Notes: generated by a model from the sequence alone, not told the origin. 64,000 nucleotides of DNA from an uncultured Methanomassiliicoccales archaeon (GCA_964348155.1 CAYGBN010000002.1:3520-67519); one strand, 5' to 3'; shown: positions 2,524 to 55,452, counted from the first letter of the stretch. Translations and numbers: made by a program.

Positions 2524-2656
2524 TCTCGTAGACCTCGTCGCAGGCAGGACAGAAGAGTTCCCCCTCCATAATCTCGTCCTCCTCCACAGCGACGCGGAGC
2601 TCCAGGTCCCCCTTGCACACGGGGCAGCAGAGGATGTCCATGAGATCCCGCTTCAT
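2480..2656 (-). CDS. Trm112-like small zinc-ribbon protein (58 aa)
   Basis: Minus-strand translation MKRDLMDILCCPVCKGDLELRVAVEEDEIMEGELFCPACDEVYEITDGIPNLLPPDLR, with the Trm112 signature (CPxC…C…C…DGIPNLL). Not in the ORF track (below 60 aa). Converges on and overlaps the tsr3 3' end by about 44 nt. Confidence 0.6.
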   Translation of the reverse strand: MKRDLMDILCCPVCKGDLELRVAVEEDEIMEGELFCPACDEVYEITDGIPNLLPPDLR

Positions 2657-2739
2657 GCGGGAGGGGACACCCGGGGGCGTCGCATAAACCCTTCGCTGGG
2701 GTCCCAGAAGCGCTGGGAAAACCGATATATAGCCGGCCC

Positions 2740-5700
2740 ATGTCGTTAGCCGAGCCAGGTGGGGGCGTGACCGACGAGGAAACCTTCCAGAAACGTCTGA
2801 ACTTCGCCCTCGTTCTGGGGGGGATCTTCGCCCTGGCCCTCTTCATCCGGTCATTCTTCGTCTACGACCTGGCCCTGCGGGACTTCCTTCTGTCGGGGGG
2901 ATCGGACGCCTTCTACTACCGCTGGACCATCGACCACATCGTCACCACGGGGACCCACCTCCTCCGTGACGGGATGCTCAACTACCCCCTGGGCATGAAC
3001 AACCCGCGTCCGCCGGTGTACGGGTGGAGCGTCTCCATCGTTGGCATGATGCTGGGCTACCTGCAAGGCTCCCTGGAGCTGGGGATCGCCCAGAGCTTCC
3101 TCTTCTCCACGGCCGTGTGGGGAGCCCTGACGATCTTTCCAACCTACTTCCTGGGGCGCGACATCTTCGGGCGGCGTGCGGGCCTGGTGGGAGCTTTCTT
3201 CCTGGCGCTGATGCCGGCCCACATCCAGCGCTCCCCCCTGAGCAACGGCGACCACGACGCCCTGGTCCTCTTCTTCGTGGTGACGGCCTTCTACTTCTTC
3301 CTCCGGGCCCTCCGGGAGCTGAGACAGGAGGAGTGGGTCACTCGATGGACGAGCCCTCGCGCCGTCGTGCGGGGACTTCGCCAGCTCCTCCTGGGGAACC
3401 GAAGGACGATCCTCTTCTCCGTCATGGCGGGGACGGCCGTGGCCGCCGTGGCCCTGACCTGGCAGGGCTGGGCCTACGTCCCCGTGGTCATCATGGCCTA
3501 CTTCATCGTTCAGCTCCTCGTCCACCAGGTCCGGAACGAGGACCCCCTGGGCGTGCTGCTGGCCTTCACCGTCACCCTGGGAACCGGGGTGCTCCTGGCG
3601 GCCCCCTACTACGTGGCCACGGGCTTCGTTCGCACCTGGTTCGACATTCCCCTGATCCTGTTCGTCGCCTCCATCGGGCTGGGGTTGCTGTTCACCGTTT
3701 TCCATCGGCTCCCGTGGGTCCTGGTCATTCCCCCGGTGCTCCTGGGGTTCACCGGCGGCCTGGCCATCGCCTCGTTCTACAGTCCGGCCGTGGCCAACGC
3801 CCTAACCTCCGGCTTCGGCTACTTCGCCCCCAACAAGGTCTTCGAGACCATCGCAGAGGCGCAGCCGCCGGAGCTCAGCCAGGCCATCCTCTCCTTCGGC
3901 GCCGTCGCCTACTACCTGGCCATCTTCGGCATCGGCTGGATGGCCATCCAGTTCGTGCGGCGGCCGCGGGCGGACTACCTGTTCGCCCTGGCCTGGAGCG
4001 CGGCCGCCATCTTCATGGCCATGTCCGCCGTCCGCTTCATCTTCAACGCCTCCCCCGCCTTCGCCCTCACCTCCGCGTGGATCACGGTCCTCCTGGTGGA
4101 GCGGCTGGGATTCGAGCAGCTTCGCCGGACGGTCACCGCCTCCGGGGGTAGCCGGCTCACGGCCCTCCGAAAGGGGGTGAAGGCCCGCCACGTGGCGGGG
4201 GCGGCCTTCGTCGCCCTCCTCCTCGTCCTCCCCAACGTGTGGTACGGCGTGGACGCCGCCATCCCCTTCGAACGGAAGGCCGAGCTGGACCAGCAGGTGT
4301 ACAACGCGATTCCCGCCCCCCTCCAGCCGGGGGGCTACCAGGAGGGGAGCCTCTTCTACTTCGGGGCCTTCGGCTACAACCTTCCCATGAAGAACACCTA
4401 CTTCCCCCAGGCGTGGGAGTGGTTCCGAACCCAGGACGCGGAGGTCTTCCCCCTCACGGACCGTCCCGCCTTCCTGAGCTGGTGGGACTACGGCTTCGAG
4501 GCCATCGAGGAAGGGCGCCACCCCACGGTGGCCGACAACTTCCAGAACGGGTTCGAGTACGCGGGCCACTTCTTGCTGGCCCAGAGCGAGAACGAGGGAA
4601 TCGCTGTCCTGAACGTCCGTCTTCTCCACGGCGACCTGGTGGAGCATGGCGGCGCCCTCGGCAGCGACGTCCAGGCGATCCTGCTGGCCCACGGCCTGGA
4701 GCCGGACCTTGTCCGCGACGTCCTGGAGCGGCCCACGATCTACATCCCCATCATCAAGGCGGATCCCGACCGCTTCGGCCAGTGGGACGCCCAGATCTCC
4801 CGCCGAAACGCCCGCGTCATCTACCTGAAGGCCCTCCTCACGGAGACCCTGGACCTGGACCTCCAGGCGGCGCTCTACCGGCAGCTGCGCATGGCCACGG
4901 GCCACAGCGTGGACTACTTCGCGGTGGACTCCCGCCTGGTGCCCTTCTCCGGCTCGAACACCGGGATCTTCTACGCCCCCGTGAAGCTGACGGACCACCG
5001 CACGGCGGAGCTGGCGGGGCTCCGGAGCGTCCCGGTGGACTTCTACCGCCTCCTGGCGGAGACCACGGACGGGCGGACGTTCGAACTCCAGGACGTGCCC
5101 CCCGCCGCCCAGATTGCCAACGTCCGCATCGTATACACGGAGATGTTCTACAACAGCATGCTCTACCGCATCTTCTTCGGGCAGAAGGGGAGCGACGTGG
5201 GGCTGGAGGACGAGGGGCTCCCCGCCATCGCGCCCCCCCTGGACGGACAGACCCCGCTCCACGGTTACATGCTGAAGCACTTCCAGCTGGCGTACCGGAC
5301 GGCGTACTACAACCCCCACCCCCCGCAGGAGGTCCTCAACTTCACGGAGGAGTGGACGGCGGTGGGCCTGTTCGAGGCCCAGGACCTCCAGGAGCAGATC
5401 GCCGCGGGGGAGGCGGTGGGGACGGTGGACGTCTCCCCGTCCGTGGCCCTCCGACAGGGCATCGTCGTGCTGCGCTTCTACGACGGGGCGATCCTTCAGG
5501 GCCGCGTCACTGCGGAGGACGGGCGTCCCCTGGAGGGCGTCCGCATCACCGTCCTGGACGAGGAAGGGATCCCCCACGACACGGAGTTCACCGACGCCCA
5601 AGGGGACTACCAGGTGCTCATGCCCTCGGGCGAGGTTCGCGTGGTGGCTTCCACGGGAGACCTTATCGGGCAGTCCCGGACGGGCAGCACTCTCCTAGGG

Positions 5701-8700
5701 GATGTGACCCTTTTCGTCCGGAAGGACCAGGCGGCCCGCGTGCCGCAGGACCGGGACGGGGACGGCCGCCTGGACTACCAGGTCCGTCAGGATTTCACGG
5801 TCCCCGCCTCCACCCTCCGCGGGGTCGTCTTCGCGGACGGAAACCGGAACGCGGGGAGGGAGGGGGGGGAGGGGGGGCGGGGGGGCCTCGGGGGGGAGGT
5901 GCGGGATGGCGACGGGAACGTCGCGGGGGCGGGGATTACGGGGGCGGACGGAGTTTACGAGATCGCGGGACTCCTTCCCGGGGACTACAGCGTCGTCCTC
6001 CTGCGGGACGACAGCCAGCTGGAGGAGGAGGACGTAACCCTCATCTTGGGCCAGGCGACGACCCACGACCTGGACCTTCCGGCCGGGCACCTCTTGGGGA
6101 CCCTGCGCGATGAGTACGGGCTCCCCGCGGTCGGGGGCGTGGTCGACATCGTGGAGGACGCCACGGGGCGACGTTGGACCGTGCCGGTGGACGAGGAGGG
6201 GGCCTTCGACGCGGCGGGGCTTGTGGAGGGCAACTACACGATACAGGGCTTTCTGGGGGCGCGGGAGTCCCTTCCCGAGCGCGTGCGGATCCCACGAGGA
6301 CTGAACGCCTCCCGGGACCTGGTTGCGAAGCCCCTTGGTGCGGTCGAGGGCCGCATCTTCGTGGCCTTCCAGCCCGCCCCCCACGCGAGCGTGTGGCTGC
6401 AGCCCCGAAAAATCCCCACGCCCGTGGCTCTCCAAGCCGACGCCGAGGGCCGATTCCAGGCGTCCCTCCCCGTTGGAACCTACGACGCCTACGCCCTCCA
6501 CTACCGGGCTGCTGAGCCCCACAGCTTCCTGGGCGTCCTCACGGTGGCGGAGGGCGCCGTTCAGACCTGGGACATCTTCCTGCAGCCCGCGGTTCACGTG
6601 TCCGGCCGGGTGACCCTGGCGGACGCCGGGGAGCCCGGCGTGTCCGTCACCTTCGCCCAGGGTGAGGCCTCCCGCACGGCCACCACGGGCGACACGGGCG
6701 ACTACGCCCTCCACCTGCCCAAGGGGCTCTACCGGGTGTGGGCCCTGCACCCCGAGGGGCAGTACGTCGCCAGCCACAGCCTCGGCGGGACCGCCCGGCT
6801 GGACCTCCGCCTGGCGGAGGCCGACTCTGCGGAGGGGCGGGTCTTCTACGACCGCAACGGCAACGGCACCTGGGACCCCGGGGAGGGAGTGGAGGGAGTG
6901 CGCCTCCAGTTCGTGGAGGAGGGCGGAGTCGCCTTCCGTCTCGACGCCGGGGCGGAGGGGACGTACATGGTGTCCCTCCTCCCCGGGACGTCGTACACGC
7001 TGAAGGTGGAGGAGGCCGGCTTCCTTCCCCTCTCCCTGGGCCCCTTCACGTCCGTCACCTTCCTCCCCCAGACCAATCTGGAGCTTCGACCGGAGCCCGT
7101 GGACGTGGACGGCACCCTGGTCCCCCTGGACGCCCTGGACCTGGAGGGGACGCCCGTCGCCTTTGCCCCCCTGGGGGACGGGGCGGAGGCAGCGGAGGCG
7201 ACGGCGGACGCGAGCGGCGCCTTCGTCGTGGACCTGCTGCCGGGGCTGTACGCCGTGGAGGTAGACGCCCCCGAGGACGGGGACGAGGCCGTCCGGATCC
7301 AGCTCCCGGAAGTGCGGACCCTGCGCATTCCCGTGGGGAAGGGGAACACGACCCTGGCCGTCGAGGTCGTGAAGCGCGTGCAGCTCAACGGCAGCCTGGA
7401 GGTGGCCGGAGGTCCAATGCAGGGGGCCCTGCTCCTCCAGGGGCCCGAGGAGCTCGAGGTGAGCGTGGACGGGAACTACACCGTCCTCCTGCGACCGGGC
7501 AACTACACCCTGTTCGGCGGCGCCTTCGCCGGCGGGTTGCCGTATGTCCTGCTGGAGCGCCTCAGCGTCACCGCCCCGACCACGTTCAACGCCTCCCTCA
7601 CGCCCGCGGCCCAGGTGGACGGCCGCGTGACCGTGGAAGGGCAGGCCCCCCCCGCGGCCATGGATCTCACCTTCCTCCGGACGGACGGCGCGAGTCTGAC
7701 CCTGCGGACGGACGCTCAGGGCGGCTACGAGGCGATCCTGGCCCCGGGCAACTACACCGTCTCCCTCGCCTGGCAGGGAGTGGACGGCGTGGACGGGCCC
7801 CTCCGGTTCGTGCGCTACAGCCTGAGCCAGGAGGTCGCCTTAGAGGCGGAAGAGGTCCGGACCCTAGACCTTCCCGTGGTCCGCACGCTCGAAAACGCCA
7901 CCCTGGAGGGGCGCGTCCTCCTGGGCGGGATGCCGGCGTCCGCCCAGGTCACCTTCGAGGCCGCCAACGCCACGGCCATGGACGCGTCCCTGGTCACCGG
8001 CGGCACCTTCACAGTCGCCCTCGCCCCCGGCCGGTACAACGTCTACGTCTTCCGGGAGACGGGGAAGACGGTCAGCCTCTCGTCGCTTCTCGTCCAGCCG
8101 GGAACGAGCAACGAGGTGACGCTCCTCCTGGAGTCGGGCTACCGCGTGGCCGGCATCGTGTCCCTCCCCGACGGGAGCCGAACGACCACGACCCTCACCT
8201 TCGCCGCGGAGGCGAGCGTGAACGTCACCACGGACGCCGCGGGGGTCTACGAGGCCTATCTCCCGGCGGGGACGTACGCTCTAGCGGCCCGGGTCCAGCG
8301 CACGGAGCGCGGCGTTCCCGTGGAGTACAGCCTGGAGGAGGAGTTCGTCCTCGTCGCGAGCACGACCCGTAACCTGCAGCTGGCGCGGCGCGACGACCCC
8401 GCCGTCACCCTGGCGTGGGACGTCCAGCAGCGGGCGACGGTGTCCGCGGGGAGCGTCGTGGACTACACCCTAACCCTCCGGAACACAGGGAACGTGGACG
8501 ACCGCTACGGGATGACGGCCTCCGTCCCGGGTTGGACCTTCGACTTCAAGCCACGTAGGGTGACCCTACCCTTCGGCCAGGACAACGAGGCCGTCGTGGA
8601 GGTGCGCATCACCACGCCTCCCGACGCTCTGGTGGAGCATCCCTCCCTGGTGGTGGAGGCCGCCTCCCTCCTGGGGACGGGGTCGCGGGACCTCCTCTCG

Positions 8701-9228
8701 GTGGACGTGGACATCCTCCAGGTTCGGCGCATCGACCTCCGTTTGGCCGCCCAACCCCCCACCCTCTCTCCCGAAGCCCTGGAGCTCCCCGTGGAGCTGG
8801 TCAATCCCGGGAACGGCCCGGACGTCTACAACGTGATCCTCACGAACCCGCAGACCCTGGAGACCCAGGGTTGGCGAGCCGAGCTCCAGGTGGACGCCGA
8901 GGGGAGGGGGACCGCCGCGGAGGGACTGGCGGTCGCGGCCAGCGAGACGCGTGTCGTCACCCTCCGGCTGGAGGTCGTGGGGGCCGTGGGGCCCACCCGG
9001 GCCCTCCTGCGGGCCTTCTCCCAGGACGACTCCAGGGTGGAGACGTTGCTGGAGGTCCCCGTGGTCTTCCCGTCCCTCTCCATCCCCGTGGAGGACGTGG
9101 TCCTGGACGGCCCCAACGTCCGTTTGGGGGCCCCTTCCTTCCCCGTGTTCCTCTACGGGTCCCTGGCCGCCGCGGCCGCCCTCGTGGCCATCCTCCTCCT
9201 CACACGCCGCCGGAGGTCGCGTCGATGA
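2740..9228 (+). CDS. aglB: AglB/STT3 oligosaccharyltransferase (N-terminal ~900 aa) fused to a ~1250-aa C-terminal array of carboxypeptidase-regulatory-like/CARDB beta-sandwich repeats, with a C-terminal TM anchor
   Basis: Multi-TM N-terminus and the WWDYG catalytic motif (FLSWWDYGFEAIEEGRHPTVADNF). About 10 repeats of the G.Y…L.PG.Y.V type follow (GDYQVLMPSGEVRV, GVYEIAGLLPGDYSVVLL, GDYALHLPKGLYRVWAL, and others). There are two CARDB-like segments (RNTGNVDDRYGM…, VNPGNGPDVYNV…). The C-terminus is …VAILLLTRRRRSRR. Confidence 0.85.
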   Translation: MSLAEPGGGVTDEETFQKRLNFALVLGGIFALALFIRSFFVYDLALRDFLLSGGSDAFYYRWTIDHIVTTGTHLLRDGMLNYPLGMNNPRPPVYGWSVSIVGMMLGYLQGSLELGIAQSFLFSTAVWGALTIFPTYFLGRDIFGRRAGLVGAFFLALMPAHIQRSPLSNGDHDALVLFFVVTAFYFFLRALRELRQEEWVTRWTSPRAVVRGLRQLLLGNRRTILFSVMAGTAVAAVALTWQGWAYVPVVIMAYFIVQLLVHQVRNEDPLGVLLAFTVTLGTGVLLAAPYYVATGFVRTWFDIPLILFVASIGLGLLFTVFHRLPWVLVIPPVLLGFTGGLAIASFYSPAVANALTSGFGYFAPNKVFETIAEAQPPELSQAILSFGAVAYYLAIFGIGWMAIQFVRRPRADYLFALAWSAAAIFMAMSAVRFIFNASPAFALTSAWITVLLVERLGFEQLRRTVTASGGSRLTALRKGVKARHVAGAAFVALLLVLPNVWYGVDAAIPFERKAELDQQVYNAIPAPLQPGGYQEGSLFYFGAFGYNLPMKNTYFPQAWEWFRTQDAEVFPLTDRPAFLSWWDYGFEAIEEGRHPTVADNFQNGFEYAGHFLLAQSENEGIAVLNVRLLHGDLVEHGGALGSDVQAILLAHGLEPDLVRDVLERPTIYIPIIKADPDRFGQWDAQISRRNARVIYLKALLTETLDLDLQAALYRQLRMATGHSVDYFAVDSRLVPFSGSNTGIFYAPVKLTDHRTAELAGLRSVPVDFYRLLAETTDGRTFELQDVPPAAQIANVRIVYTEMFYNSMLYRIFFGQKGSDVGLEDEGLPAIAPPLDGQTPLHGYMLKHFQLAYRTAYYNPHPPQEVLNFTEEWTAVGLFEAQDLQEQIAAGEAVGTVDVSPSVALRQGIVVLRFYDGAILQGRVTAEDGRPLEGVRITVLDEEGIPHDTEFTDAQGDYQVLMPSGEVRVVASTGDLIGQSRTGSTLLGDVTLFVRKDQAARVPQDRDGDGRLDYQVRQDFTVPASTLRGVVFADGNRNAGREGGEGGRGGLGGEVRDGDGNVAGAGITGADGVYEIAGLLPGDYSVVLLRDDSQLEEEDVTLILGQATTHDLDLPAGHLLGTLRDEYGLPAVGGVVDIVEDATGRRWTVPVDEEGAFDAAGLVEGNYTIQGFLGARESLPERVRIPRGLNASRDLVAKPLGAVEGRIFVAFQPAPHASVWLQPRKIPTPVALQADAEGRFQASLPVGTYDAYALHYRAAEPHSFLGVLTVAEGAVQTWDIFLQPAVHVSGRVTLADAGEPGVSVTFAQGEASRTATTGDTGDYALHLPKGLYRVWALHPEGQYVASHSLGGTARLDLRLAEADSAEGRVFYDRNGNGTWDPGEGVEGVRLQFVEEGGVAFRLDAGAEGTYMVSLLPGTSYTLKVEEAGFLPLSLGPFTSVTFLPQTNLELRPEPVDVDGTLVPLDALDLEGTPVAFAPLGDGAEAAEATADASGAFVVDLLPGLYAVEVDAPEDGDEAVRIQLPEVRTLRIPVGKGNTTLAVEVVKRVQLNGSLEVAGGPMQGALLLQGPEELEVSVDGNYTVLLRPGNYTLFGGAFAGGLPYVLLERLSVTAPTTFNASLTPAAQVDGRVTVEGQAPPAAMDLTFLRTDGASLTLRTDAQGGYEAILAPGNYTVSLAWQGVDGVDGPLRFVRYSLSQEVALEAEEVRTLDLPVVRTLENATLEGRVLLGGMPASAQVTFEAANATAMDASLVTGGTFTVALAPGRYNVYVFRETGKTVSLSSLLVQPGTSNEVTLLLESGYRVAGIVSLPDGSRTTTTLTFAAEASVNVTTDAAGVYEAYLPAGTYALAARVQRTERGVPVEYSLEEEFVLVASTTRNLQLARRDDPAVTLAWDVQQRATVSAGSVVDYTLTLRNTGNVDDRYGMTASVPGWTFDFKPRRVTLPFGQDNEAVVEVRITTPPDALVEHPSLVVEAASLLGTGSRDLLSVDVDILQVRRIDLRLAAQPPTLSPEALELPVELVNPGNGPDVYNVILTNPQTLETQGWRAELQVDAEGRGTAAEGLAVAASETRVVTLRLEVVGAVGPTRALLRAFSQDDSRVETLLEVPVVFPSLSIPVEDVVLDGPNVRLGAPSFPVFLYGSLAAAAALVAILLLTRRRRSRR

Positions 9229-11990: not shown

Positions 11991-12866
11991 TTAGGGGGGG
12001 CCCTGTCCGGCGGCCACCGTGTTCTTCAGGAGCATGGCCACGGTCATGGGCCCCACGCCTCCGGGGACGGGGGTGATGGCCCCCGCCACCCGGGACACCG
12101 CGTCGAAATCCACGTCCCCCACGATGCGGTACCCCCGGGGGGCCTCCGGGTCGGGCACCCGGTTGATGCCGACGTCCACCACCACGGCTCCCGCCTGGAC
12201 CATCTCCGCCCCGACCAGCCCCGGGCGCCCCGCGGCCACCACCAGGATCTCCGCCCGTCGCGCGTGGTCCTCCAGCCGCGCCGTGTGCGAGTGGCACACC
12301 GTCACCGTGGCGTTTCCTCCCTCCGCCTTCTGCATGAGAAGCGCCGCCAGGGGCTTGCCCACCAGGCCGCTTCGCCCGACGATGACCACGTCCTTCCCTT
12401 CGGGGGGATGGCCCGAACGAAGGAGGAGCGTCTGGATGCCCAGGGGAGTCGCCGGGACGAAGGTGGGACTGCCCGCCAGCAGCCGCCCCATGCTGACCGG
12501 GTGAAAGCCGTCCACGTCCTTCGCGGGGGCCACGGCTCCCAGGGCCGCTTGCTCGGACAGGTGGGGCGGAAGGGGCCGCTGGACCAAGATGCCGTGCACG
12601 GAGGGGTCCTCGTTCAGGCCGTCGATGCGGGCCTGCAGCTCCCGCTGGGATGCATCCGCCGGCAGCCGCTCCACGCGGGATGTGATGCCCACCTCCCGGC
12701 TCGCCCTCCGCTTGGTCTCGACGTAGATCCGGGAGGCAGGGTCATCGCCCACCAGGACGGCAGCCAGTCCCAGGACCACGCCCTCCCGCCCGAGGCCCGC
12801 CACCTCCTCCTTCACCTCCTGGCGGATGCGGCGGGCTAGGGCCCTCCCGTCGATGATCTCGGCCAT
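11991..12866 (-). CDS. folD: Bifunctional methylenetetrahydrofolate dehydrogenase/cyclohydrolase
   Basis: MAEIIDGRALARRIRQEVKEEV…GLAAVLVGDDPASRIYV…KDVDGFHP…VIVGRSGLVGKPLAALL… Start assigned to the internal ATG (MAEIIDGRAL). The upstream 26 codons of the track ORF are unlikely to be translated. Confidence 0.9.
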   Translation of the reverse strand: MAEIIDGRALARRIRQEVKEEVAGLGREGVVLGLAAVLVGDDPASRIYVETKRRASREVGITSRVERLPADASQRELQARIDGLNEDPSVHGILVQRPLPPHLSEQAALGAVAPAKDVDGFHPVSMGRLLAGSPTFVPATPLGIQTLLLRSGHPPEGKDVVIVGRSGLVGKPLAALLMQKAEGGNATVTVCHSHTARLEDHARRAEILVVAAGRPGLVGAEMVQAGAVVVDVGINRVPDPEAPRGYRIVGDVDFDAVSRVAGAITPVPGGVGPMTVAMLLKNTVAAGQGPP

Positions 12867-13031
12867 GGATCTCACGACGAAACCGCGGCCTTCGGTTAAG
12901 GCTTCCCTCGACGGAGCGGAGGGAGCGGCGGAAAAAGGTGCCAAATGGGTGGGGTTTCAAGGAGGGGGGAGGTTGCCCATTTGACACCCGTCAGTATTCT
13001 ACCGGACGCCTGGATATAAAGCTTTGTCCAC

Positions 13032-14045
13032 TTGTCCGGGACGGCGTTCGACCGAGCCGGGGCGAAGGCGGTTATAGCCCGTGGCCCTTCGGCACCCCGT
13101 GCGGGATCCTGCGGAGGGTCCGGGCTGAGTCGCCTCCAAGACCTCCTTCGGGCCGGCCACTTCGTAGTCACGGCGGAGGTGAACCCCCCAGCCTCCGCGT
13201 CCCTGGCGGACCTTCGAAAGGCGACGGCGGCCATGCGGGGGACCGCGGACGCCTACAACGTGACGGACAACATCCGGGCCTACGTCCGGATGGCCAGCTG
13301 GGCGGGGGCGCTCCTCCTCCTTCGAGAGGGGATGGAGCCCATCCTGCAGATGGTGACTCGGGATCGGAACCGCATCGCCCTGCAGTCCGACCTGCTGGGG
13401 GCGGCGGCCCACGGGGTGCGCAACGTGCTGTGCCTGGGCGGGGACGACCCGAGGAGGGGAGGAGAGCCCAGCGCAAGGGCGGCGGAGGACCTTACCCCGG
13501 AGGACCTGCTGGCGGCCTTCCGTCGGCTTCGGGATGAGGGGGTGCTCCGGGGGGGCGAACGCGTGGAGACCTGGCCGGACGTCTTCCTGGGAGCCGTCTC
13601 CAATCCCTTCGGCGGGAGCTACGCCGTGGGCGCGGACATCCTGGAGCGGCGGGTGGAGGCGGGGGCAGAGTTCGTGCAGACCCAGGCGGTGTTCGACGTG
13701 GAGGGGTTGGAGGCCTACCTGCACGAGGTGCGGGCCCGAAACCTCCACCGGAGGGTGGCCCTCTTGGGCGGCGTGATCCCCTTGAAGTCGGCCAAGATGG
13801 CCCGCTTCCTTGAGGCGAGGGTGGCGGGCATCCGGATGCCCTCCCACGTGGTGGAGCGGATGGAGGGGGCGAGCGACCCGGCGGCGGAGGGGGTCCGGAT
13901 CTGCCTCGAGACCCTGGATGCGGTGCAGGGGCTGGAGGGGCTGGCGGGGGTCCACCTCATGCCCGTGGGATGGGGGGCCCAGGTCGCGGCCATCGTGGAT
14001 CGGGCGGGACTTCTTCCCCGTCCAGACCCCGTTGAAAAGGCTTAA
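13032..14045 (+). CDS. metF: 5,10-methylenetetrahydrofolate reductase (MetF-like)
   Basis: …LSRLQDLLRAGHFVVTAEVNPP… and a MetF TIM-barrel fold throughout. The track start at 13032 (TTG) gives an implausible low-complexity N-terminus. The conserved N-terminus begins at the in-frame CTG at 13125-13127, and no ATG/GTG/TTG is available (see findings). A TATA-like ATATAAAG lies at about 13012. Confidence 0.8.
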   Translation: MSGTAFDRAGAKAVIARGPSAPRAGSCGGSGLSRLQDLLRAGHFVVTAEVNPPASASLADLRKATAAMRGTADAYNVTDNIRAYVRMASWAGALLLLREGMEPILQMVTRDRNRIALQSDLLGAAAHGVRNVLCLGGDDPRRGGEPSARAAEDLTPEDLLAAFRRLRDEGVLRGGERVETWPDVFLGAVSNPFGGSYAVGADILERRVEAGAEFVQTQAVFDVEGLEAYLHEVRARNLHRRVALLGGVIPLKSAKMARFLEARVAGIRMPSHVVERMEGASDPAAEGVRICLETLDAVQGLEGLAGVHLMPVGWGAQVAAIVDRAGLLPRPDPVEKA

Positions 14046-19183: not shown

Positions 19184-21310
19184 ATGGGCAAGGTCCTTAT
19201 CGGGGTGGCCTGGCCCTACGCCAACGCCCCCCGCCACATCGGCCACGCCGCGGGCGCCTACATCCCCGCGGACATCTTCGCCCGCTACCAGCGCATGGCG
19301 GGCAACGACGTCCTCATGGTCAGCGGCAGCGACATGCACGGGACCCCCACCACCGTACGGGCGGAGGAGGAGGGGGTTCCTCCGCAGGAGGTGGCGGAGC
19401 GGTACCACGCCATTCACGTCCAGAGCTTCGAGGACCTGGCCATCTCCTACGACCTCTACTGGAAGACCTCGGATCCCCACCACATGGCCGTGGCGCAGGA
19501 CGTCCTCCGCACCCTCCGGGAGAAGGGCCACGTGTACGAGGAGGAGATGGAGGCCTCGTGGTGTCCCCAGTGCGAGAAGTTCCGGCCCGATCGGTACGTC
19601 GAGGGGGAGTGTCCTCACTGCGGCTTCGCCAAGGCCCGAGGCGACCAGTGCGAGCAGTGCGGCCGGATGCTAGATCCCTTCGACCTGCACGATCCCCACT
19701 GCCAGGTCTGCGGGACGGGCATCGAACGAAAACGCACGCGCCACTTCTTCTTCCGTCTGAGCGGCTTCCAGGAGGCCCTGGAGGACTGGTTGAAGACAAA
19801 GGGCCACTGGCGGACGCACGTGCTCAACTTCGCCCTGGCCTGGTTGAAGGAGGGCCTGCGGGACCGTCCCGTCACCCGGGACATCGATTGGGGCATCCCC
19901 CTCCCATGGGCCGGATACGAGGACAAGCGCATCTACGTGTGGTTTGAGGCCTTCATCGGCTACCTCTCCGCGAGCATCGAGTGGGCCCGGAGGGGGGGAG
20001 AGCTGGACAGTTGGAGGGATTGGTGGTACGACCCGGAGGCACGCCACTACTACTTCGTTGGGAAGGACAACGTCGTCTTCCACACGCTCTTCTGGCCCGC
20101 CGTGCTGATGGGGTACGACGAGGAACTGGACCTGCCCTACGACGTGCCCGCCAACCAGTACATGAACTTCGGCGGGGAGAAGATGTCCGCCGGACGCGGC
20201 GTAGGCGTCTGGCTCCCCGATCTCCTGGAGGCGTACGACCCGGACGCCCTTCGCTACTACGTGGCGGCGGCCATGCCGGAGAACAAGGACACGGAGTTCA
20301 CCTTCCAAGAGCTCGCGCGGCGTGTGAACACGGAGCTGCTGGCCATCTACGGCAACTTCGTCCACCGCGTCCTCACCTTCACCCACAAGGAGTTCGAGAA
20401 AGTTCCCCCGGCCGGTTCCTTGACCCCTGAGGACGAGACGCTCCTCCGGGAGATGGAGGAGGGGTGGAGGCGGGCGGGCCAGAACCTGGCCTATTGCCAC
20501 TTCAAGGACGGGTTGCGGGAGATCATGGCCCTCGCCCGGAAGGGGAACCAGTACTTCGACGCCAGGGCCCCGTGGGACCTGGCCAAGGGAGACCGCGATG
20601 CCTTGGGCACCAGCCTGCGGGTCTCCCTGCGCCTCGTGAAGGCCCTGGCCATCCTCACGGCCCCCTACCTCCCCTTCTCCGCCGATCGGCTCTGGCGCAT
20701 GCTGGGGTACGAGGGGAGCGTCCACGCGGCCTCGTGGGAGGAGGCGCTGGAGGACCTCCCCCAAGGGCAGGCGCTGCCCGACCCGCAACCCCTTTTCGAG
20801 AAGGTCGCCGTGCCACCGGAGCGAGAGGAGGAGGCGGCCCGACTCGACGTCCGGGTTGGCCGCGTCGTGAAGGTCGAGGACCACCCGCGGGCCGACAAGC
20901 TGTACCTGGTCGACGTGGACCTGGGCACGGAGCGTCGACGTCTGGTTGCCGGACTCCGGCAGGAGTACGAGGCCGAAGAGATGGAGGGCCGGCACATCGT
21001 GGTCCTCTGCAACCTGAAGCCCGCCACCCTCCGCGGCATCACCTCCGACGGCATGCTGCTGGCGGCGGTGGACGGCGATGAGGTCTCCCTCCTCCTGGCG
21101 GGGGAGGCACCCCCGGGGACCCAGGTCCTGGGCCGCCCTGACCTGCCGCAGCTCTCCTTCGAGGAGTTTCGGGCCTTGAAGATGCTGGTCGATGAGGAGG
21201 GCCGGGTGGCCTTTGTGGGCTCGGGCGAGGGGGAGGGCGTCCTCCTGCAGGCCGGGGACCATCCCGTCACCGTCGACCGGCCCATCCGCGCCGGGGCCGA
21301 GGTGACCTAG
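19184..21310 (+). CDS. metG: Methionyl-tRNA synthetase with C-terminal EMAP/Trbp111-like tRNA-binding domain
   Basis: PYANAPRHIGHAAG (HIGH motif), Zn knuckle CPQCEKF…CPHCG, KMSAGRG (KMSKS-like). C-terminal OB-fold domain RVGRVVKVEDHPRADKLYLVDVDLG. A TATA-like CATTTAAAT lies about 30 nt upstream. Confidence 0.95.
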   Translation: MGKVLIGVAWPYANAPRHIGHAAGAYIPADIFARYQRMAGNDVLMVSGSDMHGTPTTVRAEEEGVPPQEVAERYHAIHVQSFEDLAISYDLYWKTSDPHHMAVAQDVLRTLREKGHVYEEEMEASWCPQCEKFRPDRYVEGECPHCGFAKARGDQCEQCGRMLDPFDLHDPHCQVCGTGIERKRTRHFFFRLSGFQEALEDWLKTKGHWRTHVLNFALAWLKEGLRDRPVTRDIDWGIPLPWAGYEDKRIYVWFEAFIGYLSASIEWARRGGELDSWRDWWYDPEARHYYFVGKDNVVFHTLFWPAVLMGYDEELDLPYDVPANQYMNFGGEKMSAGRGVGVWLPDLLEAYDPDALRYYVAAAMPENKDTEFTFQELARRVNTELLAIYGNFVHRVLTFTHKEFEKVPPAGSLTPEDETLLREMEEGWRRAGQNLAYCHFKDGLREIMALARKGNQYFDARAPWDLAKGDRDALGTSLRVSLRLVKALAILTAPYLPFSADRLWRMLGYEGSVHAASWEEALEDLPQGQALPDPQPLFEKVAVPPEREEEAARLDVRVGRVVKVEDHPRADKLYLVDVDLGTERRRLVAGLRQEYEAEEMEGRHIVVLCNLKPATLRGITSDGMLLAAVDGDEVSLLLAGEAPPGTQVLGRPDLPQLSFEEFRALKMLVDEEGRVAFVGSGEGEGVLLQAGDHPVTVDRPIRAGAEVT

Positions 21311-21319
21311 ACGCTCCGC

Positions 21320-21979
21320 CTGGACCTCCACACCCACAGCCGGTACTCGCCGGACAGCGTGCTGGAGGTGCGATCCATGCTGCAAGTGGCCAGGGCCCGG
21401 GGCCTCCACGGTCTGGCGGTGACGGACCACAACTCCCTGGGCGGGAGCCAGGAGGCTCTCGAGCTGGCCCGGGGTTCGGATCTCGTCGTCGTCCGCGGGA
21501 TGGAGATCTCCTCCCGGGACGGGCACATCCTGGCGTACGGGGTGGACGAGGAGGTGCCGCGGGGGCTCAACGCCGCGGAGACCGTGCAGCGGATCGAGGA
21601 TCTGGGGGGCCTCGCCGTGGCCGCCCACCCCTACCGATTCTGGTCGGGGTTGCGGGAGGAGGACGTCCGCGCCGCGCGCTTCCAGGCCGTGGAAGCCCTC
21701 AACTCCCGCTCCGTGACGCGGCACAACCGGAGGGCCGGCGCCCTGGGCCGGGAGCTGCAGCTCCCCGTTACGGGAGGCAGCGACGCCCACCGGCTCGCGG
21801 ACATCGGTCGGGCCCTCGTCACGATTCCGAAGGGTGCGGAGAGCGAGGAGGAGGTCCTGCAGGCCCTGCGGAGGGGGGAGGGGCGCCTGGCAGGTTCCAG
21901 TCGCACCTTCGGCCGCACGCTCCGTTACGTCGGGAAGTCCGTCAGCGAGTGGATCTTCAGGGGCTTCCGCAAGATCTAG
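21320..21979 (+). CDS. PHP-domain metal-dependent phosphoesterase (COG0613-like)
   Basis: LDLHTHSRYSPDSVLEV…LAVTDHN…GGSDAH: PHP motifs I-IV. The conserved N-terminal DLHTHS lies upstream of the first ATG (21359). The reading frame continues from the metG TAG stop. The only possible start before the motif is a CTG at 21320. Confidence 0.7.
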   Translation: MDLHTHSRYSPDSVLEVRSMLQVARARGLHGLAVTDHNSLGGSQEALELARGSDLVVVRGMEISSRDGHILAYGVDEEVPRGLNAAETVQRIEDLGGLAVAAHPYRFWSGLREEDVRAARFQAVEALNSRSVTRHNRRAGALGRELQLPVTGGSDAHRLADIGRALVTIPKGAESEEEVLQALRRGEGRLAGSSRTFGRTLRYVGKSVSEWIFRGFRKI

Positions 21980-38092: not shown

Positions 38093-38428
38093 CTATGACA
38101 GCAGCTTCCGGAAGCGGAGGGTGTCCTCGAGGGACGCCTTCACCCTGAGCTTTCCCGTGGCCAGAGCCTTGAAGGGGGCGATCTCCCGGGCGATGACGCC
38201 CCGGAGAACCTCCTCGTCGGCGGTGATGGTCAGATCGGCGTCGCCCTGCGCCTGGCCCTCCTCCAAGTCCACGATCTGGCCCTCCTCCAGCCGCATGTTA
38301 TACGTGGCCCTGTCCGTCACCACCTGAATGCGCTTCACCATGCCCGCCAGCTCCTCTTGCATGCGAGGGTTCGTTCGGGCCCGCTCGTTGAAGCGCCGGA
38401 TGAGGTCCTCCAGAAGGTCGCGCACGCT
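38093..38428 (-). CDS. SCP2 (sterol carrier protein 2-like) domain protein
   Basis: …NPRMQEELAGMVKRIQVVTDRATYNMRLEEGQIVDLEEG…KALATGKLRVKASLEDTLRFRKL. SCP2 fold. Start assigned to an internal GTG. The rest of the track ORF is artefact overlapping rnhB. Confidence 0.6.
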   Translation of the reverse strand, partial: SVRDLLEDLIRRFNERARTNPRMQEELAGMVKRIQVVTDRATYNMRLEEGQIVDLEEGQAQGDADLTITADEEVLRGVIAREIAPFKALATGKLRVKASLEDTLRFRKLLS

Positions 38429-39071
38429 ACCACTCCGTGAGCTTTCGCAGCTTGGCCCGGGCCAGCAGGCGCTGGGAGGTTCTCCACGCCCGCCGGGCGT
38501 GGGGGGGCACGTCCCCTTGCTCCCGCACCCATGCCCGCAGGAAGGCCACGGTCTGGGGGTCGTGGGCGTAGCCGCTCCCCACGGGCTGCCCAAGCTCCGC
38601 ACCGATGCGCTCCATCTCCTCGTCCCGCCGAACCTTCGCCACGATGGAGGCGGCAGAGACCACCGGGTGCCGTTCGTCCGCCCCATGCTCCGACCGCAGC
38701 GGGAGGTCGTAGCCCACGCCCCGGAGGATCTGGCGTCGAAATCGGGCCTCGGAGGTGTCGCAGCAATCCACCACGACCTCGTCAGGGGCCAGGGCCCGAA
38801 TGACGTCCGCGAAGAGGGTCGCCTCCAAGAGGTTGAGGGAGGTCGCGTCCATCCCTCGGTCCAACTCCGCCGCGGAGACCACGCGAACCTGGCACTCCGC
38901 CACCGCCTGGACCTCCTGGGCCAGGCCTCGTCTTCGCTGGGGAGTCAACCGCTTGGAGTCCCGAACGCCCAGAGACCGCAGGGAGCCGGGGTCCGTGGTC
39001 AGGACTCCCGCCACGACCAAGGGCCCCAGGACGGGGCCGCGTCCCGCCTCGTCGACGCCCAGAACCCTCAG
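38427..39071 (-). CDS. rnhB: Ribonuclease HII
   Basis: …LRVLGVDEAGRGPVLGPLVVAGVL…DSKRLTP…VDCCDTSEARF…SAASIVAKVRRD. RNase HII catalytic residues are present. The N-terminus begins at an in-frame CTG (39069-39071) that overlaps the upstream gene's TGA (CTGA). No ATG/GTG/TTG is available. Confidence 0.8.
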   Translation of the reverse strand: MRVLGVDEAGRGPVLGPLVVAGVLTTDPGSLRSLGVRDSKRLTPQRRRGLAQEVQAVAECQVRVVSAAELDRGMDATSLNLLEATLFADVIRALAPDEVVVDCCDTSEARFRRQILRGVGYDLPLRSEHGADERHPVVSAASIVAKVRRDEEMERIGAELGQPVGSGYAHDPQTVAFLRAWVREQGDVPPHARRAWRTSQRLLARAKLRKLTEW

Positions 39072-40339
39072 GGGGCCACCTCCCGACGCAGGCCCTCCAC
39101 ATCCTCCCGCAGGGCCGCGACGTCGACTCCGGTGAGTGCGCCGTTCTCCACCACGATCCGCCCCTCCACGACGACGTCCCTCACCTGACCTCCCTCCGCC
39201 AGATACACCAGGTAGGATAAGACCTCCGACGGATCGCGGGGGGGCCGCCGGCCCCGGAGATCGAGGACGACCACATCGGCGACGGTGCCCGCCTGGAGGG
39301 ATCCCCCCTCCAACCCCAGGACCTTCGCCCCGCCCCGGGTGCAGAGGTCCAGCACGAGGGAAGCCGTGGCGGCCCCCGGGTCCCACCGCGCGGCCTTGTG
39401 CTGGCCTGCGCAACCCCGCATGTGCTGGAAGAGGTCCAGGGTGCCGACCTGGGCGGGGGAGGCCGTGCCCAGGGCGACGGAGACGCCCTCCGCCCGCACC
39501 TCCGGCAGGGCCAGGCTGCCTCCCGTTCCACCCATGGCGTCGGCCAGGGGGCAGTGGACGACCTGCGCCCCGGATCGGCCGAGGGCGCGAATCTCGTTCA
39601 AGGTGAGCCAGACGGCGTGAAGGGCCAGGAGACGGGGGGAAAGGAGGCCGCGGGCCTCCAGCCAGGCTCCGGGCCGGTCGCCCGTGGCACGCTGGAAGCG
39701 GTAGACCTCGCGGCGGGTGCGGGCCAGGGGCAGGCACCATCGCAGGCCCCGATCCTCCGCGAAGGCCGCCACCTCCTCCAAGAGGGCAGGGTCCTCCGGG
39801 TTCGCGACCCCCACCGAGGGTTCCACACGGTCCCACGCCTGTACGCGGGCAAGCCCCTTGGCGCACCCCTCCAGCTCTTCGGGGGAGGCCACCTCCCAGC
39901 AGGGGAAGCCTCGGCTCCCCACCTGCGTCACGGCGCGGGCCAGCTCCTCCGCCCCTGGGAAGAGGTCGAGAAAGGACGTCGTTCCCCCAAGGAGCATCTC
40001 CGCAGCGGCCGCGGCCGCGGCGAGCTCCACGTCCCGACGGGTGAGGTTCTCCCGCAGAAGGCGGCGGCGCTCGCGCAGGTCCTCCGGAGGAAGGTCGCGG
40101 GGCGGGCCCAGCAGGAGGTCGACGGCCCGCGTGTAGGCGTTGACGAGCCCCGGGAGCACGAGGCATCCCGCGGCGTCCAGGACGTGGTCCGCGCCCTGGT
40201 CCGCGCCCCGTTCGGGTCCGGCGACCTCCGCCACGCGCCCGCCCTCCACGTAGAGGTTGCCCTCCACCACCCGGCGGCCGTCGTCCTGGGTGACCAGAAG
40301 GCCCCCCTTCACCAGGAGGGACACGCCCGGAGCCATCCC
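39068..40339 (-). CDS. Amidohydrolase-family deaminase/chlorohydrolase (MtaD/SsnA/TrzA-like)
   Basis: MAPGVSLLVKGGLLVT…VLPGLVNAYTR (metal-binding)…HAVWL…HCPLADAM. Amidohydrolase_1 fold. Confidence 0.7.
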   Translation of the reverse strand, partial: GMAPGVSLLVKGGLLVTQDDGRRVVEGNLYVEGGRVAEVAGPERGADQGADHVLDAAGCLVLPGLVNAYTRAVDLLLGPPRDLPPEDLRERRRLLRENLTRRDVELAAAAAAAEMLLGGTTSFLDLFPGAEELARAVTQVGSRGFPCWEVASPEELEGCAKGLARVQAWDRVEPSVGVANPEDPALLEEVAAFAEDRGLRWCLPLARTRREVYRFQRATGDRPGAWLEARGLLSPRLLALHAVWLTLNEIRALGRSGAQVVHCPLADAMGGTGGSLALPEVRAEGVSVALGTASPAQVGTLDLFQHMRGCAGQHKAARWDPGAATASLVLDLCTRGGAKVLGLEGGSLQAGTVADVVVLDLRGRRPPRDPSEVLSYLVYLAEGGQVRDVVVEGRIVVENGALTGVDVAALREDVEGLRREVAP

Positions 40340-54560: not shown

Positions 54561-54561
54561 G

Positions 54562-55365
54562 TCACGAGGGCTTCGTCACGGCCTCCAGACTGGCCTTCAG
54601 CGCGGTCATGAGGTCCTCCGGCGACTCCCGCTCCGCCGCCGTCGGCACCTCCACCTCCTTCCCCTCCACCTTGGCCTCGATGAGCTGCAGGAGGGCCTCC
54701 CGGTAGCGGTCCTGGAACTGGCCTATGTCGAAGGGGATCGTCTGCGCCTTCACGAGGTCCACGGCCAGGTCCAGCTCCGGCTCCGAGACCTCCACCGGCT
54801 TCTCCAGGGGGACGTCCGGCGGCTGACGGACCTCGTCCTCGTAGTAGAGGGTCGAGAGCACCAGAACGCCCTCCCGGGGCCGGACGGTGACGACCTGCTC
54901 CTTCTTCCAGATGGAGGCCTGGGCCACGGCGACCTTGTTCGTCAGCTCCAGGGCCTGGCGAAGGAGCTCGAATGCCTTCACCGCCGACTCGGCGGGCGCC
55001 AGGTAGTAGCTTGAGTCGTGGAGGAGGGGGTCCACCTCCTCCCGCTCCACGAAGCCCACCACCTCCAGGGCCTTGCTGCTCTCCAGGGGCACCCTCTCGA
55101 AGTCCTCCTCCGTCAGGACGACGTACTTGCCCTTCGTGTACTCGTACCCCTTCCGGATCTCCTGGTAGGGGACCTGCTCCTCACAGGTCGGGCAGTAGTA
55201 GGGGCGCTTCAGGGGGGTGCCGCACTCCGCGTGGAGGCTCCGGAAGGCCACGTCCCGCCGTTGGGTGGCGGTGAAGAGCTTGACCGGGATGTTGACCAGG
55301 CCGAAGGTGACGGCCCCCGACCAGATGGCCCGCGGCATCATGGGAGGCTGTCCAAAGATGGCCTG
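54562..55365 (-). CDS. ku: Ku protein (bacterial/archaeal-type NHEJ end-binding protein)
   Basis: MPRAIWSGAVTFGLVNIPVKLFTATQRRDVAFRSLH… Canonical prokaryotic Ku N-terminus and core. Start assigned to the internal ATG. The upstream part of the track ORF is artefact. Confidence 0.85.
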   Translation of the reverse strand, partial: QAIFGQPPMMPRAIWSGAVTFGLVNIPVKLFTATQRRDVAFRSLHAECGTPLKRPYYCPTCEEQVPYQEIRKGYEYTKGKYVVLTEEDFERVPLESSKALEVVGFVEREEVDPLLHDSSYYLAPAESAVKAFELLRQALELTNKVAVAQASIWKKEQVVTVRPREGVLVLSTLYYEDEVRQPPDVPLEKPVEVSEPELDLAVDLVKAQTIPFDIGQFQDRYREALLQLIEAKVEGKEVEVPTAAERESPEDLMTALKASLEAVTKPS

Positions 55366-55443: not shown

Positions 55444-55452
55444 TTCAGAGGC

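What the first reader, a model, noticed from the sequence alone, without database searches (positions are those of the whole stretch)
21300..21365. Apparent CUG initiation: PHP-domain gene and metF have canonical N-termini starting at in-frame CTG with no ATG/GTG/TTG available
The PHP catalytic motif DLHTHS is encoded before the first ATG (21359). The only upstream in-frame codons after the metG TAG are ACG CTC CGC CTG, so a CTG at 21320 would give M-DLHTHSRYS. metF shows the same pattern: the CTG at 13125 gives M-SRLQDLLRAGHFVVTAEVNPP, a textbook MetF N-terminus, whereas the annotated TTG start at 13032 adds 31 low-complexity residues. With rnhB (separate finding) that makes three genes in one window. 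This suggests CUG start-codon use in this lineage, or systematic mis-annotation risk for tools restricted to ATG/GTG/TTG.
Basis: partly seen in the sequence, partly recalled or inferred. Interest (0 to 1): 0.55.

Follow-up and report, generated by a model that had tools for sequence, protein, structure and literature searches.

The report
Near-cognate ACG/CTG start codons, Thermoplasmata
Three ordinary enzymes in this uncultured archaeon have a near-miss codon (ACG once, CTG twice) exactly where their relatives have a normal start codon, and related species keep two of these codons, so translation probably starts there and public annotations wrongly cut off the catalytic N-termini.

Summary
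21359 is GTG, not ATG; the first ATG is 21377.

**PHP gene.** The conserved N-terminus lies upstream of every canonical start. The orthologous start is ACG 21311, directly after the metG stop, not CTG 21320. Full-length orthologs begin MLRLDLHTHS, against the window's T-LRLDLHTHS. ACG is invariant in five species across nine assemblies. Sister lineages have ATG or TTG at that position.

**metF.** CTG 13125 aligns with the GTG start of the closest relative. The TTG 13032 extension is not conserved.

**rnhB.** CTG 39071 overlaps the upstream stop (CTGA) and is conserved in three species. Orthologs begin MR[ILV]LGIDEAGRG.

**Shared features.** All three sites lie 7-8 nt downstream of a strong Shine-Dalgarno match. 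The codons upstream of the first canonical start are under purifying selection. Of 36 ortholog-checked starts in the window, three are non-canonical.

**Best explanation.** Shine-Dalgarno-anchored initiation at near-cognate codons, aided for PHP and rnhB by coupling to upstream termination. There is no direct proof. Sequencing error, TAG readthrough or recoding, and frameshifting are disfavoured. Public gene calls truncate all three proteins.

The parts
19184..21310 (+). metG (methionine--tRNA ligase). It ends in TAG at 21308-21310, in the same frame as the PHP gene.
   Evidence: Pfam tRNA-synt_1g and NCBIfam PRK00133 at 700 bits. ATG 19184 matches the relatives' start.
21299..21305 (+). Shine-Dalgarno match GAGGTGA, embedded in the last metG codons (E-V-T).
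   Evidence: 7-nt match to AGGAGGTGATC. Aligned spacing is 8 nt to ACG 21311 and 17 nt to CTG 21320. Conserved in all relatives.
21311..21313 (+). ACG, the proposed initiation codon of the PHP gene and the position of the orthologous ATG/TTG.
   Evidence: 222-aa orthologs start MLRLDLH. L004 has TGA-ATG and L097/L098 have TGA-TTG at this position. ACG is invariant in 5 species and 9 assemblies.
21320..21322 (+). It is most likely just Leu-4.
   Evidence: It is CTC in L093-L096. It lies 17 nt from the Shine-Dalgarno core. Orthologs have L/V/M/F here.
21311..21979 (+). PHP-domain CehA/McbA-family metallohydrolase, 222 codons, stop TAG.
   Evidence: PF02811 and PF13263 match. NF038032 scores 95.3 bits against a cutoff of 80. 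Same length as the orthologs.
21364..21379 (+). Internal GGAGGTG followed by ATG 21377. This is the start used by public gene calls (200 aa, lacks the HxH motif).
   Evidence: P0001 is 100% identical and 200 aa. The Shine-Dalgarno match is 7 nt at spacing 8. The ATG is not conserved in L090 or L093.
13113..13118 (+). Shine-Dalgarno match GGAGGG upstream of metF.
   Evidence: Aligned spacing is 7 nt to CTG 13125. Conserved in L084.
13125..14045 (+). metF (MTHFR) starting at CTG 13125, 306 codons.
   Evidence: PF02219 profile position 1 aligns to the residue two codons after the CTG. L084 has GTG at the aligned position, and P0122 begins MSRLQDLL.
13032..13034 (+). In-frame TTG giving a 31-codon extension. 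Judged not to be the start.
   Evidence: Relatives differ by indels in this stretch, and the ATG at this spot in L084 is out of frame. pN/pS is about 0.7 for the 20 codons before the CTG. The TTG lies only 11 nt after the conserved TATA-like box at 13012-13021, so it is probably upstream of the transcription start (inference).
38427..39071 (-). rnhB (RNase HII) starting at CTG 39071-39069, 214 codons.
   Evidence: Orthologs are 215 aa and begin MR[ILV]LGIDEAGRG. CTG is conserved in L088 and L089. The first downstream canonical start is TTG at codon 18, after the DEAGRG motif.
39077..39083 (-). Shine-Dalgarno match GGAGGTG upstream of rnhB, inside the 3' end of the amidohydrolase gene.
   Evidence: 7-nt match at aligned spacing 7. 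Conserved in L088 and L089.
39068..39070 (-). TGA stop of the upstream amidohydrolase. It overlaps the rnhB CTG, giving the tetranucleotide CTGA.

Best explanation
**What it is.** The window comes from a high-GC Thermoplasmata archaeon whose genes are mostly led by Shine-Dalgarno (SD) sequences. Three housekeeping genes have lost the canonical initiator at the ancestral start position and carry a one-base near-cognate instead.
- PHP phosphoesterase: ACG 21311, where relatives have ATG or TTG.
- metF: CTG 13125, where the closest relative has GTG.
- rnhB: CTG 39071, where relatives predict an M start; their start-codon DNA was not examined.

**How it most likely works.** The 30S subunit is held by a strong SD:anti-SD duplex that places the near-cognate codon in the P site at the normal 7-8 nt spacing. 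Initiator Met-tRNA then pairs with one mismatch, at the second position for ACG and the first position for CUG. For PHP and rnhB, ribosomes terminating on the abutting or overlapping upstream stop (TAG|ACG, CTGA) raise the local ribosome supply, which is translational coupling. The products are full-length enzymes with the normal catalytic N-termini, probably made at reduced rates.

**Shown here.** The homology of the start positions. The conservation of ACG and CTG across species. The SD geometry. Purifying selection on the codons upstream of any canonical start.

**Inferred, not shown.** That initiation really occurs on these codons, with Met, and that coupling contributes.
For: **PHP**
- 222-aa orthologs start MLRLDLHTHS, the same length as the stop-to-stop ORF.
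- L004 has TGA-ATG-TTG-AGG-CTG-GAC. L097 and L098 have TGA-TTG.
- Five species (window/L001, L002, L003, L090-92, L093-96) all have stop-ACG. The stop varies (TAG or TAA). Codon 2 is CTC/CTG, codon 3 is CGC/CGG/AGG, and codon 4 is CTG/CTC.
- Window versus L090, codons 2-16: 7 synonymous and 0 nonsynonymous differences. If placed at random, the chance that all 7 fall on synonymous sites is about (11/45)^7, or 5e-5.

**rnhB**
- CCCTGAGG is conserved in the window, L088 and L089.
- Codons 2-56 have the same pN/pS (about 0.17) as the rest of the gene.

**metF**
- GTG in L084 sits at the aligned position.
- An identical CTG is present in a second assembly, L087.

**Geometry and survey**
- SD matches of 5-7 nt lie at aligned spacing 7, 8 and 7 nt. 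This is the same spacing as the strong-SD canonical genes in the window.
- Of 36 ortholog-checked starts in the window, 16 are ATG, 16 GTG, 1 TTG and 3 non-canonical.
- Further cases in relatives: CTG at the PHP start in L005 and CTG at the Cbf5 start in L093.

**Precedent in the literature**
- E. coli initiates at CUG at 1-2% and at ACG at 0.1-1% of the AUG level, with N-terminal Met (bioRxiv 10.1101/063800).
- About 30% of harringtonine-mapped alternative start sites in Haloferax were near-cognates (PMC7261190).
- A possible CTG start has been suggested for Haloferax HVO_1510 (PMC8305020).
Against: - There is no direct evidence: no N-terminal peptide, ribosome footprint or transcript data.
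- ACG is a second-position mismatch. To my knowledge it is not in the NCBI table 11 start set and has not been reported as an archaeal initiator. Expected efficiency is low.
- The metF CTG is seen in one species only, and the two assemblies carrying it may share reads.
- Each ACG-clade species also has a CTG at codon 2 or 4 of the PHP gene. A CTG start at a variable position is therefore not strictly excluded.
- An SD plus ATG exists at 21364-21379 and could give a truncated isoform in the window genus.
- A figure of 3 of about 55 genes from one 64-kb window cannot establish a genome-wide property.
Confidence: 0.68

Rival explanations
1. The PHP gene initiates at CTG 21320 (M-DLHTHS...), and ACG/CTC/CGC are untranslated.
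For: CUG is generally a better near-cognate than ACG in E. coli. Each ACG-clade species has a CTG at codon 2 or codon 4.
Against: - Codon 4 is CTC in L093-L096.
- The spacing to the Shine-Dalgarno core is 17 nt, against 7-9 nt for normal genes.
- Codons 2-3 keep encoding L-R through synonymous changes (CTC/CTG; CGC/CGG/AGG), which implies they are translated.
- Orthologs start three codons upstream.
Confidence: 0.08
2. The genes are translated only from the next canonical start: PHP from GTG 21359 or ATG 21377, metF from ATG 13233 or TTG 13032, and rnhB from TTG 39020. The products are truncated or extended and possibly inactive, i.e. decaying genes.
For: Public gene calls use these starts (P0001, P0121/P0361, P0245/P0362). 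ATG 21377 has a good Shine-Dalgarno match.
Against: - The regions upstream of these starts are under purifying selection at the protein level across species.
- Truncation removes the PHP HxH motif, which to my knowledge is metal-binding, and the RNase HII DEAGRG motif, which to my knowledge is catalytic.
- The downstream canonical starts are not positionally conserved: GTG 21359 is ATC or GCC in L002/L003, and ATG 21377 is ATA in L090.
- The TTG 13032 extension is not conserved and differs by indels in relatives.
Confidence: 0.1
3. The downstream proteins are made by recoding rather than initiation. PHP would arise by readthrough of the in-frame metG stop (or Pyl at TAG), giving a MetRS-PHP fusion. 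rnhB would arise by a -1 frameshift on the C-run before the amidohydrolase TGA.
For: - PHP is in the same frame as metG with only one stop between them.
- The window has CCCCC-TGA before the rnhB frame.
Against: - The metG stop is TAA in the L093 lineage and TGA in L004, L097 and L098.
- In L005 the PHP gene is in a different frame from metG.
- TAG ends about half of the roughly 55 candidate ORFs listed in the window, so it is not reassigned.
- The C-run is not conserved: GCGCCC in L088 and TTCCCC in L089.
- ACG is invariant. Under readthrough it would be a freely varying Thr codon.
- No fused ortholog was seen in about 140 loci.
- metF has no upstream gene on the same strand.
Confidence: 0.05
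4. C-to-U editing of the mRNA converts ACG to AUG and CUG to UUG, restoring canonical initiators, as happens at ACG start codons in plant organelles.
For: Both kinds of non-canonical codon seen here (ACG, CUG) become canonical starts through a single C-to-U change. The conservation of ACG fits a maintained editing site. (Established knowledge: ACG-to-AUG start-codon editing occurs in chloroplasts; C-to-U tRNA editing occurs in Methanopyrus.)
Against: To my knowledge no mRNA C-to-U editing is known in archaea. No editing factor or recognition element was identified here. Near-cognate initiation explains the data without new machinery.
Confidence: 0.03
5. Sequencing or assembly errors at the start codons of a metagenome-assembled genome.
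For: The window is from an uncultured organism. The metF CTG is seen in only one species.
Against: - The window's PHP junction is identical in Logan contig L001.
- ACG is present in 9 assemblies of 5 species.
- The rnhB CTG is present in 3 species.
- The metF CTG is identical in L087.
Confidence: 0.02

Closest known systems
Near-cognate (non-AUG/GUG/UUG) initiation in prokaryotes. Examples are the CUG/AUU/AUC/AUA starts allowed by NCBI table 11, AUU of E. coli infC, and the measured initiation from all 64 codons in E. coli.
   Same: The codon is one base from AUG and is placed at normal distance from a Shine-Dalgarno sequence. It is expected to be decoded as Met by initiator tRNA at reduced efficiency. 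CUG initiates at 1-2% and ACG at 0.1-1% of AUG in E. coli, with a confirmed Met N-terminus (bioRxiv 10.1101/063800).
   Different: The host is an archaeon, which uses aIF1/aIF2 rather than IF3. To my knowledge ACG is not among the table 11 starts. Here the ACG is evolutionarily conserved across five species rather than being an engineered or sporadic case. Nothing here is experimentally measured.
Suspected atypical starts in haloarchaea: HVO_1510 and the near-cognate initiation sites seen by harringtonine ribosome profiling in Haloferax volcanii.
   Same: These are archaeal genes whose conserved N-terminal region lies upstream of any canonical start. A CTG start has been proposed for HVO_1510, with peptides found upstream of the first Met (PMC8305020). 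About 30% of the mapped alternative start sites were near-cognates (PMC7261190).
   Different: Those are different genes in a different phylum with mostly leaderless mRNAs. The sites here are Shine-Dalgarno-led and, in two cases, coupled to an upstream stop. The present cases rest on comparative sequence evidence only.
Translational coupling through overlapping or abutting stop and start codons (ATGA or TGATG arrangements in operons).
   Same: In rnhB the start overlaps the upstream stop, as CTGA in place of ATGA. The PHP start directly abuts the metG stop. In both cases the Shine-Dalgarno sequence lies inside the upstream coding sequence.
   Different: The restart codon is a near-cognate rather than ATG or GTG. 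metF shows the same codon substitution without any upstream gene on its strand, so coupling is not required.
ACG initiation codons in eukaryotic and viral mRNAs, and ACG-to-AUG start-codon editing in plant organelles.
   Same: ACG sits at a conserved initiation position and encodes an N-terminal Met.
   Different: Those systems rely on scanning and Kozak context or on PPR-directed editing. Neither is known in archaea. Here the context is a Shine-Dalgarno sequence.

Membership tests
Near-cognate translation initiation site | A conserved protein N-terminus is encoded upstream of the first in-frame ATG/GTG/TTG. | tested here: met
   PHP: DLHTHS precedes GTG 21359. rnhB: DEAGRG precedes TTG at codon 18. 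metF: the Pfam profile starts 2 codons after the CTG, and the next downstream canonical start is at codon 18 (GTG 13179).
Near-cognate translation initiation site | The codon aligned with the orthologs' start codon is one base from AUG. | tested here: met
   ACG against ATG/TTG. CTG against GTG for metF. CTG against the orthologs' predicted M start for rnhB.
Near-cognate translation initiation site | A ribosome-binding site lies at functional distance. | tested here: met
   Shine-Dalgarno matches of 5-7 nt at aligned spacing 7-8 nt, the same as canonical genes in the window.
Near-cognate translation initiation site | The near-cognate codon is conserved across species while flanking synonymous sites vary. 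| tested here: met
   ACG is conserved in 5 species. The rnhB CTG is conserved in 3 species. This is not met for metF, where only the window lineage has CTG.
Near-cognate translation initiation site | Direct demonstration of initiation at the codon (N-terminal peptide, initiation-site profiling or toeprint). | not testable with these tools
   No proteomic, ribosome-profiling or transcript data are available for this uncultured organism.
PHP-domain CehA/McbA-family metallohydrolase | Profile match above the curated cutoff, with the N-terminal HxH motif present. | tested here: met
   NF038032 scores 95.3 bits against a cutoff of 80. PF02811 and PF13263 match. DLHTHS aligns to the N-terminal motif of PDB entries 3e0f and 2yb1.
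Methylenetetrahydrofolate reductase (MTHFR, PF02219) | Full-length profile match. | tested here: met
   PF02219 positions 1-287 of 287 match, 93.5 bits against a cutoff of 24. The equivalog NCBIfam models score below their cutoffs, so the exact subfamily is not assigned.
RNase HII (PF01351) | Family match and an N-terminal DEAGRG motif. | tested here: met
   Homologs carry PF01351 and are named ribonuclease HII. GVDEAGRGP lies at codons 5-13. The window protein itself was not scanned against Pfam.
Programmed stop-codon readthrough or pyrrolysine recoding at the metG TAG | A conserved stop-codon identity and a conserved reading frame between the two ORFs. | tested here: not met
   The stop is TAG, TAA or TGA in relatives, and L005 is out of frame. 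TAG ends about half of the roughly 55 candidate ORFs listed in the window.
Programmed -1 frameshift (amidohydrolase into rnhB) | A conserved slippery sequence at the shift site. | tested here: not met
   CCCCC-TGA occurs only in the window. L088 has GCGCCC and L089 has TTCCCC.
C-to-U mRNA editing that creates a start codon | The transcript differs from the genome at the start codon. | not testable with these tools
   No RNA data are available.

The most novel reading that the evidence does not exclude
The most novel reading not excluded is that ACG and CUG are converted to AUG and UUG by C-to-U editing of archaeal mRNA. Both codon types seen here become canonical starts through that single change. 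A less radical version has a probability of about 0.3: this Thermoplasmata lineage has generally relaxed start-codon stringency, so several percent of its genes start on CUG or ACG.
Probability: 0.03. Interest if true: 0.9.

Novelty: new variant of a known kind. Interest (0 to 1): 0.5.

Why it matters
If ACG and CUG really act as initiators here, this would to my knowledge be the first evolutionarily conserved ACG start reported in an archaeon. It would also indicate that Shine-Dalgarno-led archaeal initiation tolerates second-position mismatches.

The lineage would become a natural test case for how aIF1 and aIF2 set start-codon stringency.

There is also a practical consequence. Gene callers restricted to ATG/GTG/TTG have deposited truncated or over-extended versions of all three proteins:
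- PHP: 200 aa instead of 222.
- MTHFR: 270 or 337 aa instead of 306.
- RNase HII: 158 or 195 aa instead of 214.

The truncated PHP and RNase HII calls lack the catalytic motifs, and such errors propagate into protein databases and metabolic reconstructions of uncultured archaea.

Tried and rejected
- **Exact look-ups.** The window's MetG and the 206-aa GTG-started PHP protein are not on record.
- **RNA families and tRNAs.** The Rfam gathering scan of the whole window and a permissive scan of 12860-13135 found nothing. ARAGORN found no tRNA in the window or in 17 related loci, so the initiator tRNA could not be inspected.
- **Genome scan.** It returned no member of the window's own genus; the best match was 62% identical.
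- **Sequencing error.** Rejected because of multiple assemblies and multiple species.
- **TAG reassignment or Pyl.** Rejected. TAG ends about half of the roughly 55 candidate ORFs listed in the window, and relatives have TAA or TGA at the metG stop.
- **-1 frameshift into rnhB.** Rejected because the C-run is not conserved.
- **TTG 13032 as the metF start.** Rejected. The extension differs by indels and is not conserved as protein in relatives. It also starts only 11 nt after a conserved TATA-like box.
- **False alarms in relatives.** Apparent CTG at ribC, ATC at DUF8036 and GTA at RpoP all have a canonical start within two codons.
- **GC pressure as the sole cause.** Only suggestive. ACG-clade members L090 and L093 are about 60% GC, like the canonical-start sisters L004, L097 and L098.
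Full report
**Context**

The window is 68.5% G+C and archaeal. It encodes TFB, TBP, TrmB, exosome subunits, a proteasome alpha subunit and Cbf5. The closest database proteins are labelled Thermoplasmata archaeon. The flagged site is the junction between metG (19184-21310) and a PHP-domain gene.

**Checking the observation**

metG ends with TAG at 21308-21310. The same frame continues ACG CTC CGC CTG GAC CTC CAC ACC CAC AGC..., which reads TLRLDLHTHS. The first ATG is 21377. Pfam PHP starts at residue 5 of the stop-to-stop ORF, and NCBIfam models align their positions 3-4 to residues 3-4. The conserved N-terminus is therefore encoded before any ATG/GTG/TTG.

For metF, CTG 13125 and the in-frame TTG 13032 are as described. 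rnhB is on the minus strand. Its frame reads ...GGGP-L-R-V-L-G-V-D-E-A-G-R-G, with CTG at 39071-39069 overlapping the amidohydrolase TGA at 39070-39068.

**Where the PHP gene really starts**

Among 120 homologs, the closest full-length ones (57-67% identity) are exactly 222 aa. That is the length of the stop-to-stop ORF, and most of them begin MLRLDLHTHS.

DNA from relatives confirms this:
- L004 has ...GAGGTAACC TGA ATG TTG AGG CTG GAC.
- L097 and L098 have TGA TTG at the same place.
- Five species have a stop followed by ACG: window/L001, L002, L003, L090-92 and L093-96, with 67-82% protein identity to the window, in nine assemblies.

Within that clade the metG stop is TAG or TAA. Codon 2 is CTC or CTG. 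Codon 3 is CGC, CGG or AGG. Codon 4 is CTG or CTC. The ACG never changes.

GTG 21359 is ATC in L002 and GCC in L003. ATG 21377 is ATA in L090.

**Is the upstream part translated?**

Between the window and L090, codons 2-16 of the PHP gene differ at 7 synonymous and 0 nonsynonymous positions. There are 11 synonymous and 34 nonsynonymous sites. If differences fell at random, the chance of that split is about 5e-5.

For rnhB, codons 2-56 have pN/pS of about 0.17, like the rest of the gene. Codons 2-17, which lie upstream of the first canonical start in the window, show 3-8.5 synonymous against 1-3.5 nonsynonymous differences.

For metF, codons 2-36 look coding (pN/pS 0.39, against 0.29 for the rest of the gene). 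The 20 codons before the CTG do not (about 0.7), and relatives differ there by indels.

**metF and rnhB**

The closest metF relative is L084, at 84% identity. It has GTG exactly where the window has CTG, behind the same GGAGGG, and its protein is called MSRLQDLL. L085 uses a TTG a few codons upstream. More distant relatives use an ATG about 10 codons further up. The window's CTG is reproduced in a second assembly, L087.

For rnhB, about 30 orthologs of 214-217 aa begin MR[ILV]LGIDEAGRG. The window, L088 (90%) and L089 (82%) all have GGGAGGTG-N3-CC CTG AGG, with the CTGA overlap.

**Geometry**

All three sites follow a 5-7 nt match to AGGAGGTGATC. The aligned spacing is 7, 8 and 7 nt, the same as strong-SD canonical genes in the window. 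CTG 21320 would be 17 nt away.

**How common is this?**

I mapped the gene calls of relatives onto the window, and the window's genes onto relatives. Of 36 starts checked, 16 are ATG, 16 GTG, 1 TTG and 3 non-canonical. Pfam coordinates for the remaining genes are compatible with canonical starts.

Of about 140 PHP loci from two collections, only three lineages lack a canonical start: the ACG clade, L005 (CTG) and L104 (GTC). L093 also carries CTG at the orthologous GTG start of Cbf5.

**Alternatives**

- Sequencing error is excluded for PHP and rnhB by the multiple assemblies and species.
- Readthrough or Pyl is unlikely. TAG ends about half of the roughly 55 candidate ORFs listed in the window. 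The metG stop is TAA or TGA in relatives. L005 is out of frame. ACG would be free to vary if it were simply a Thr codon.
- A -1 frameshift into rnhB is unlikely because the C-run is not conserved.
- Translation only from downstream canonical starts conflicts with the purifying selection. It would also remove the PHP HxH and RNase HII DEAGRG motifs, which to my knowledge are the metal-binding and catalytic residues.
- C-to-U editing would neatly convert both ACG and CUG into canonical starts. To my knowledge it has no precedent in archaeal mRNA, and it cannot be tested here.

**Comparison with what is known**

CUG is an accepted rare bacterial start. In E. coli, CUG gives 1-2% and ACG 0.1-1% of AUG-level initiation, with a Met N-terminus (bioRxiv 10.1101/063800). 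A review describes archaea as using AUG, GUG and UUG (PMC4705826). Near-cognate sites appeared in Haloferax ribosome profiling but were set aside (PMC7261190). A CTG start has been suggested for HVO_1510 (PMC8305020). I found no report of a conserved ACG start codon in an archaeon in the three literature searches I ran on this question.

**Verdict**

The best explanation is Shine-Dalgarno-anchored initiation at near-cognate codons, helped for PHP and rnhB by coupling to upstream termination. It is supported by comparative evidence only. Public gene calls for all three proteins are wrong in length.

Noticed in passing
window 12940-12991 (folD/metF intergenic region); also L084, L085, L090, L093: A 52-nt hairpin-forming element, AGGTGCCAAATGGG...CCCATTTGACACCC. 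It is invariant in five species whose proteins are only 63-84% identical. The only change is AA to GG on the 5' arm, matched by T to C on the 3' arm, giving one AU-to-GC compensatory pair and one AU-to-GU pair. It lies just upstream of a conserved TATA-like box, GGATATAAAG, at 13012-13021. There is no Rfam match. It may be a regulatory RNA or a protein-binding site for the folate/purine gene cluster.
   Followed up: partly
window 21364-21379: A perfect GGAGGTG lies 8 nt (aligned spacing) before the internal ATG 21377 of the PHP gene. It could give an N-terminally truncated isoform lacking the HxH motif. It is conserved in L002 and L003 but not in L090 or L093.
   Followed up: partly
L005 about 545-560; L104 about 100-115; L093 near 15360 (minus strand): More candidate non-canonical starts in relatives. 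L005 has CTG at the PHP start position with an in-frame TGA two codons upstream. L104 has GTC at the PHP start position after GGAGG. L093 and L096 have CTG at the position of the GTG start of Cbf5, after AAGGAGG.
   Followed up: partly
window, 36 ortholog-checked gene starts: GTG is used as often as ATG as the start codon (16 each), and TTG once. This is an unusually high share of non-ATG starts.
   Followed up: partly
window 53601-55974 and 58480-60096 (minus strand): A Ku-domain gene sits next to an ATP-dependent DNA ligase domain gene, and a second full-length ATP-dependent DNA ligase lies nearby. To my knowledge Ku and non-homologous end-joining genes are uncommon in archaea.
   Followed up: no
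window, whole: TAG ends about half of the roughly 55 candidate ORFs listed in the window. Several adjacent genes abut in the same frame with no spacer (14045/14046, 15623/15624, 21310/21311, 32196/32197, 36749/36750, 51785/51786).
   Followed up: no
window 2644-9228 (+): A very long ORF of about 2,160 aa from ATG at codon 33. Its ortholog in L085 carries STT3/PMT_2 oligosaccharyltransferase domains and CarboxypepD_reg domains.
   Followed up: no
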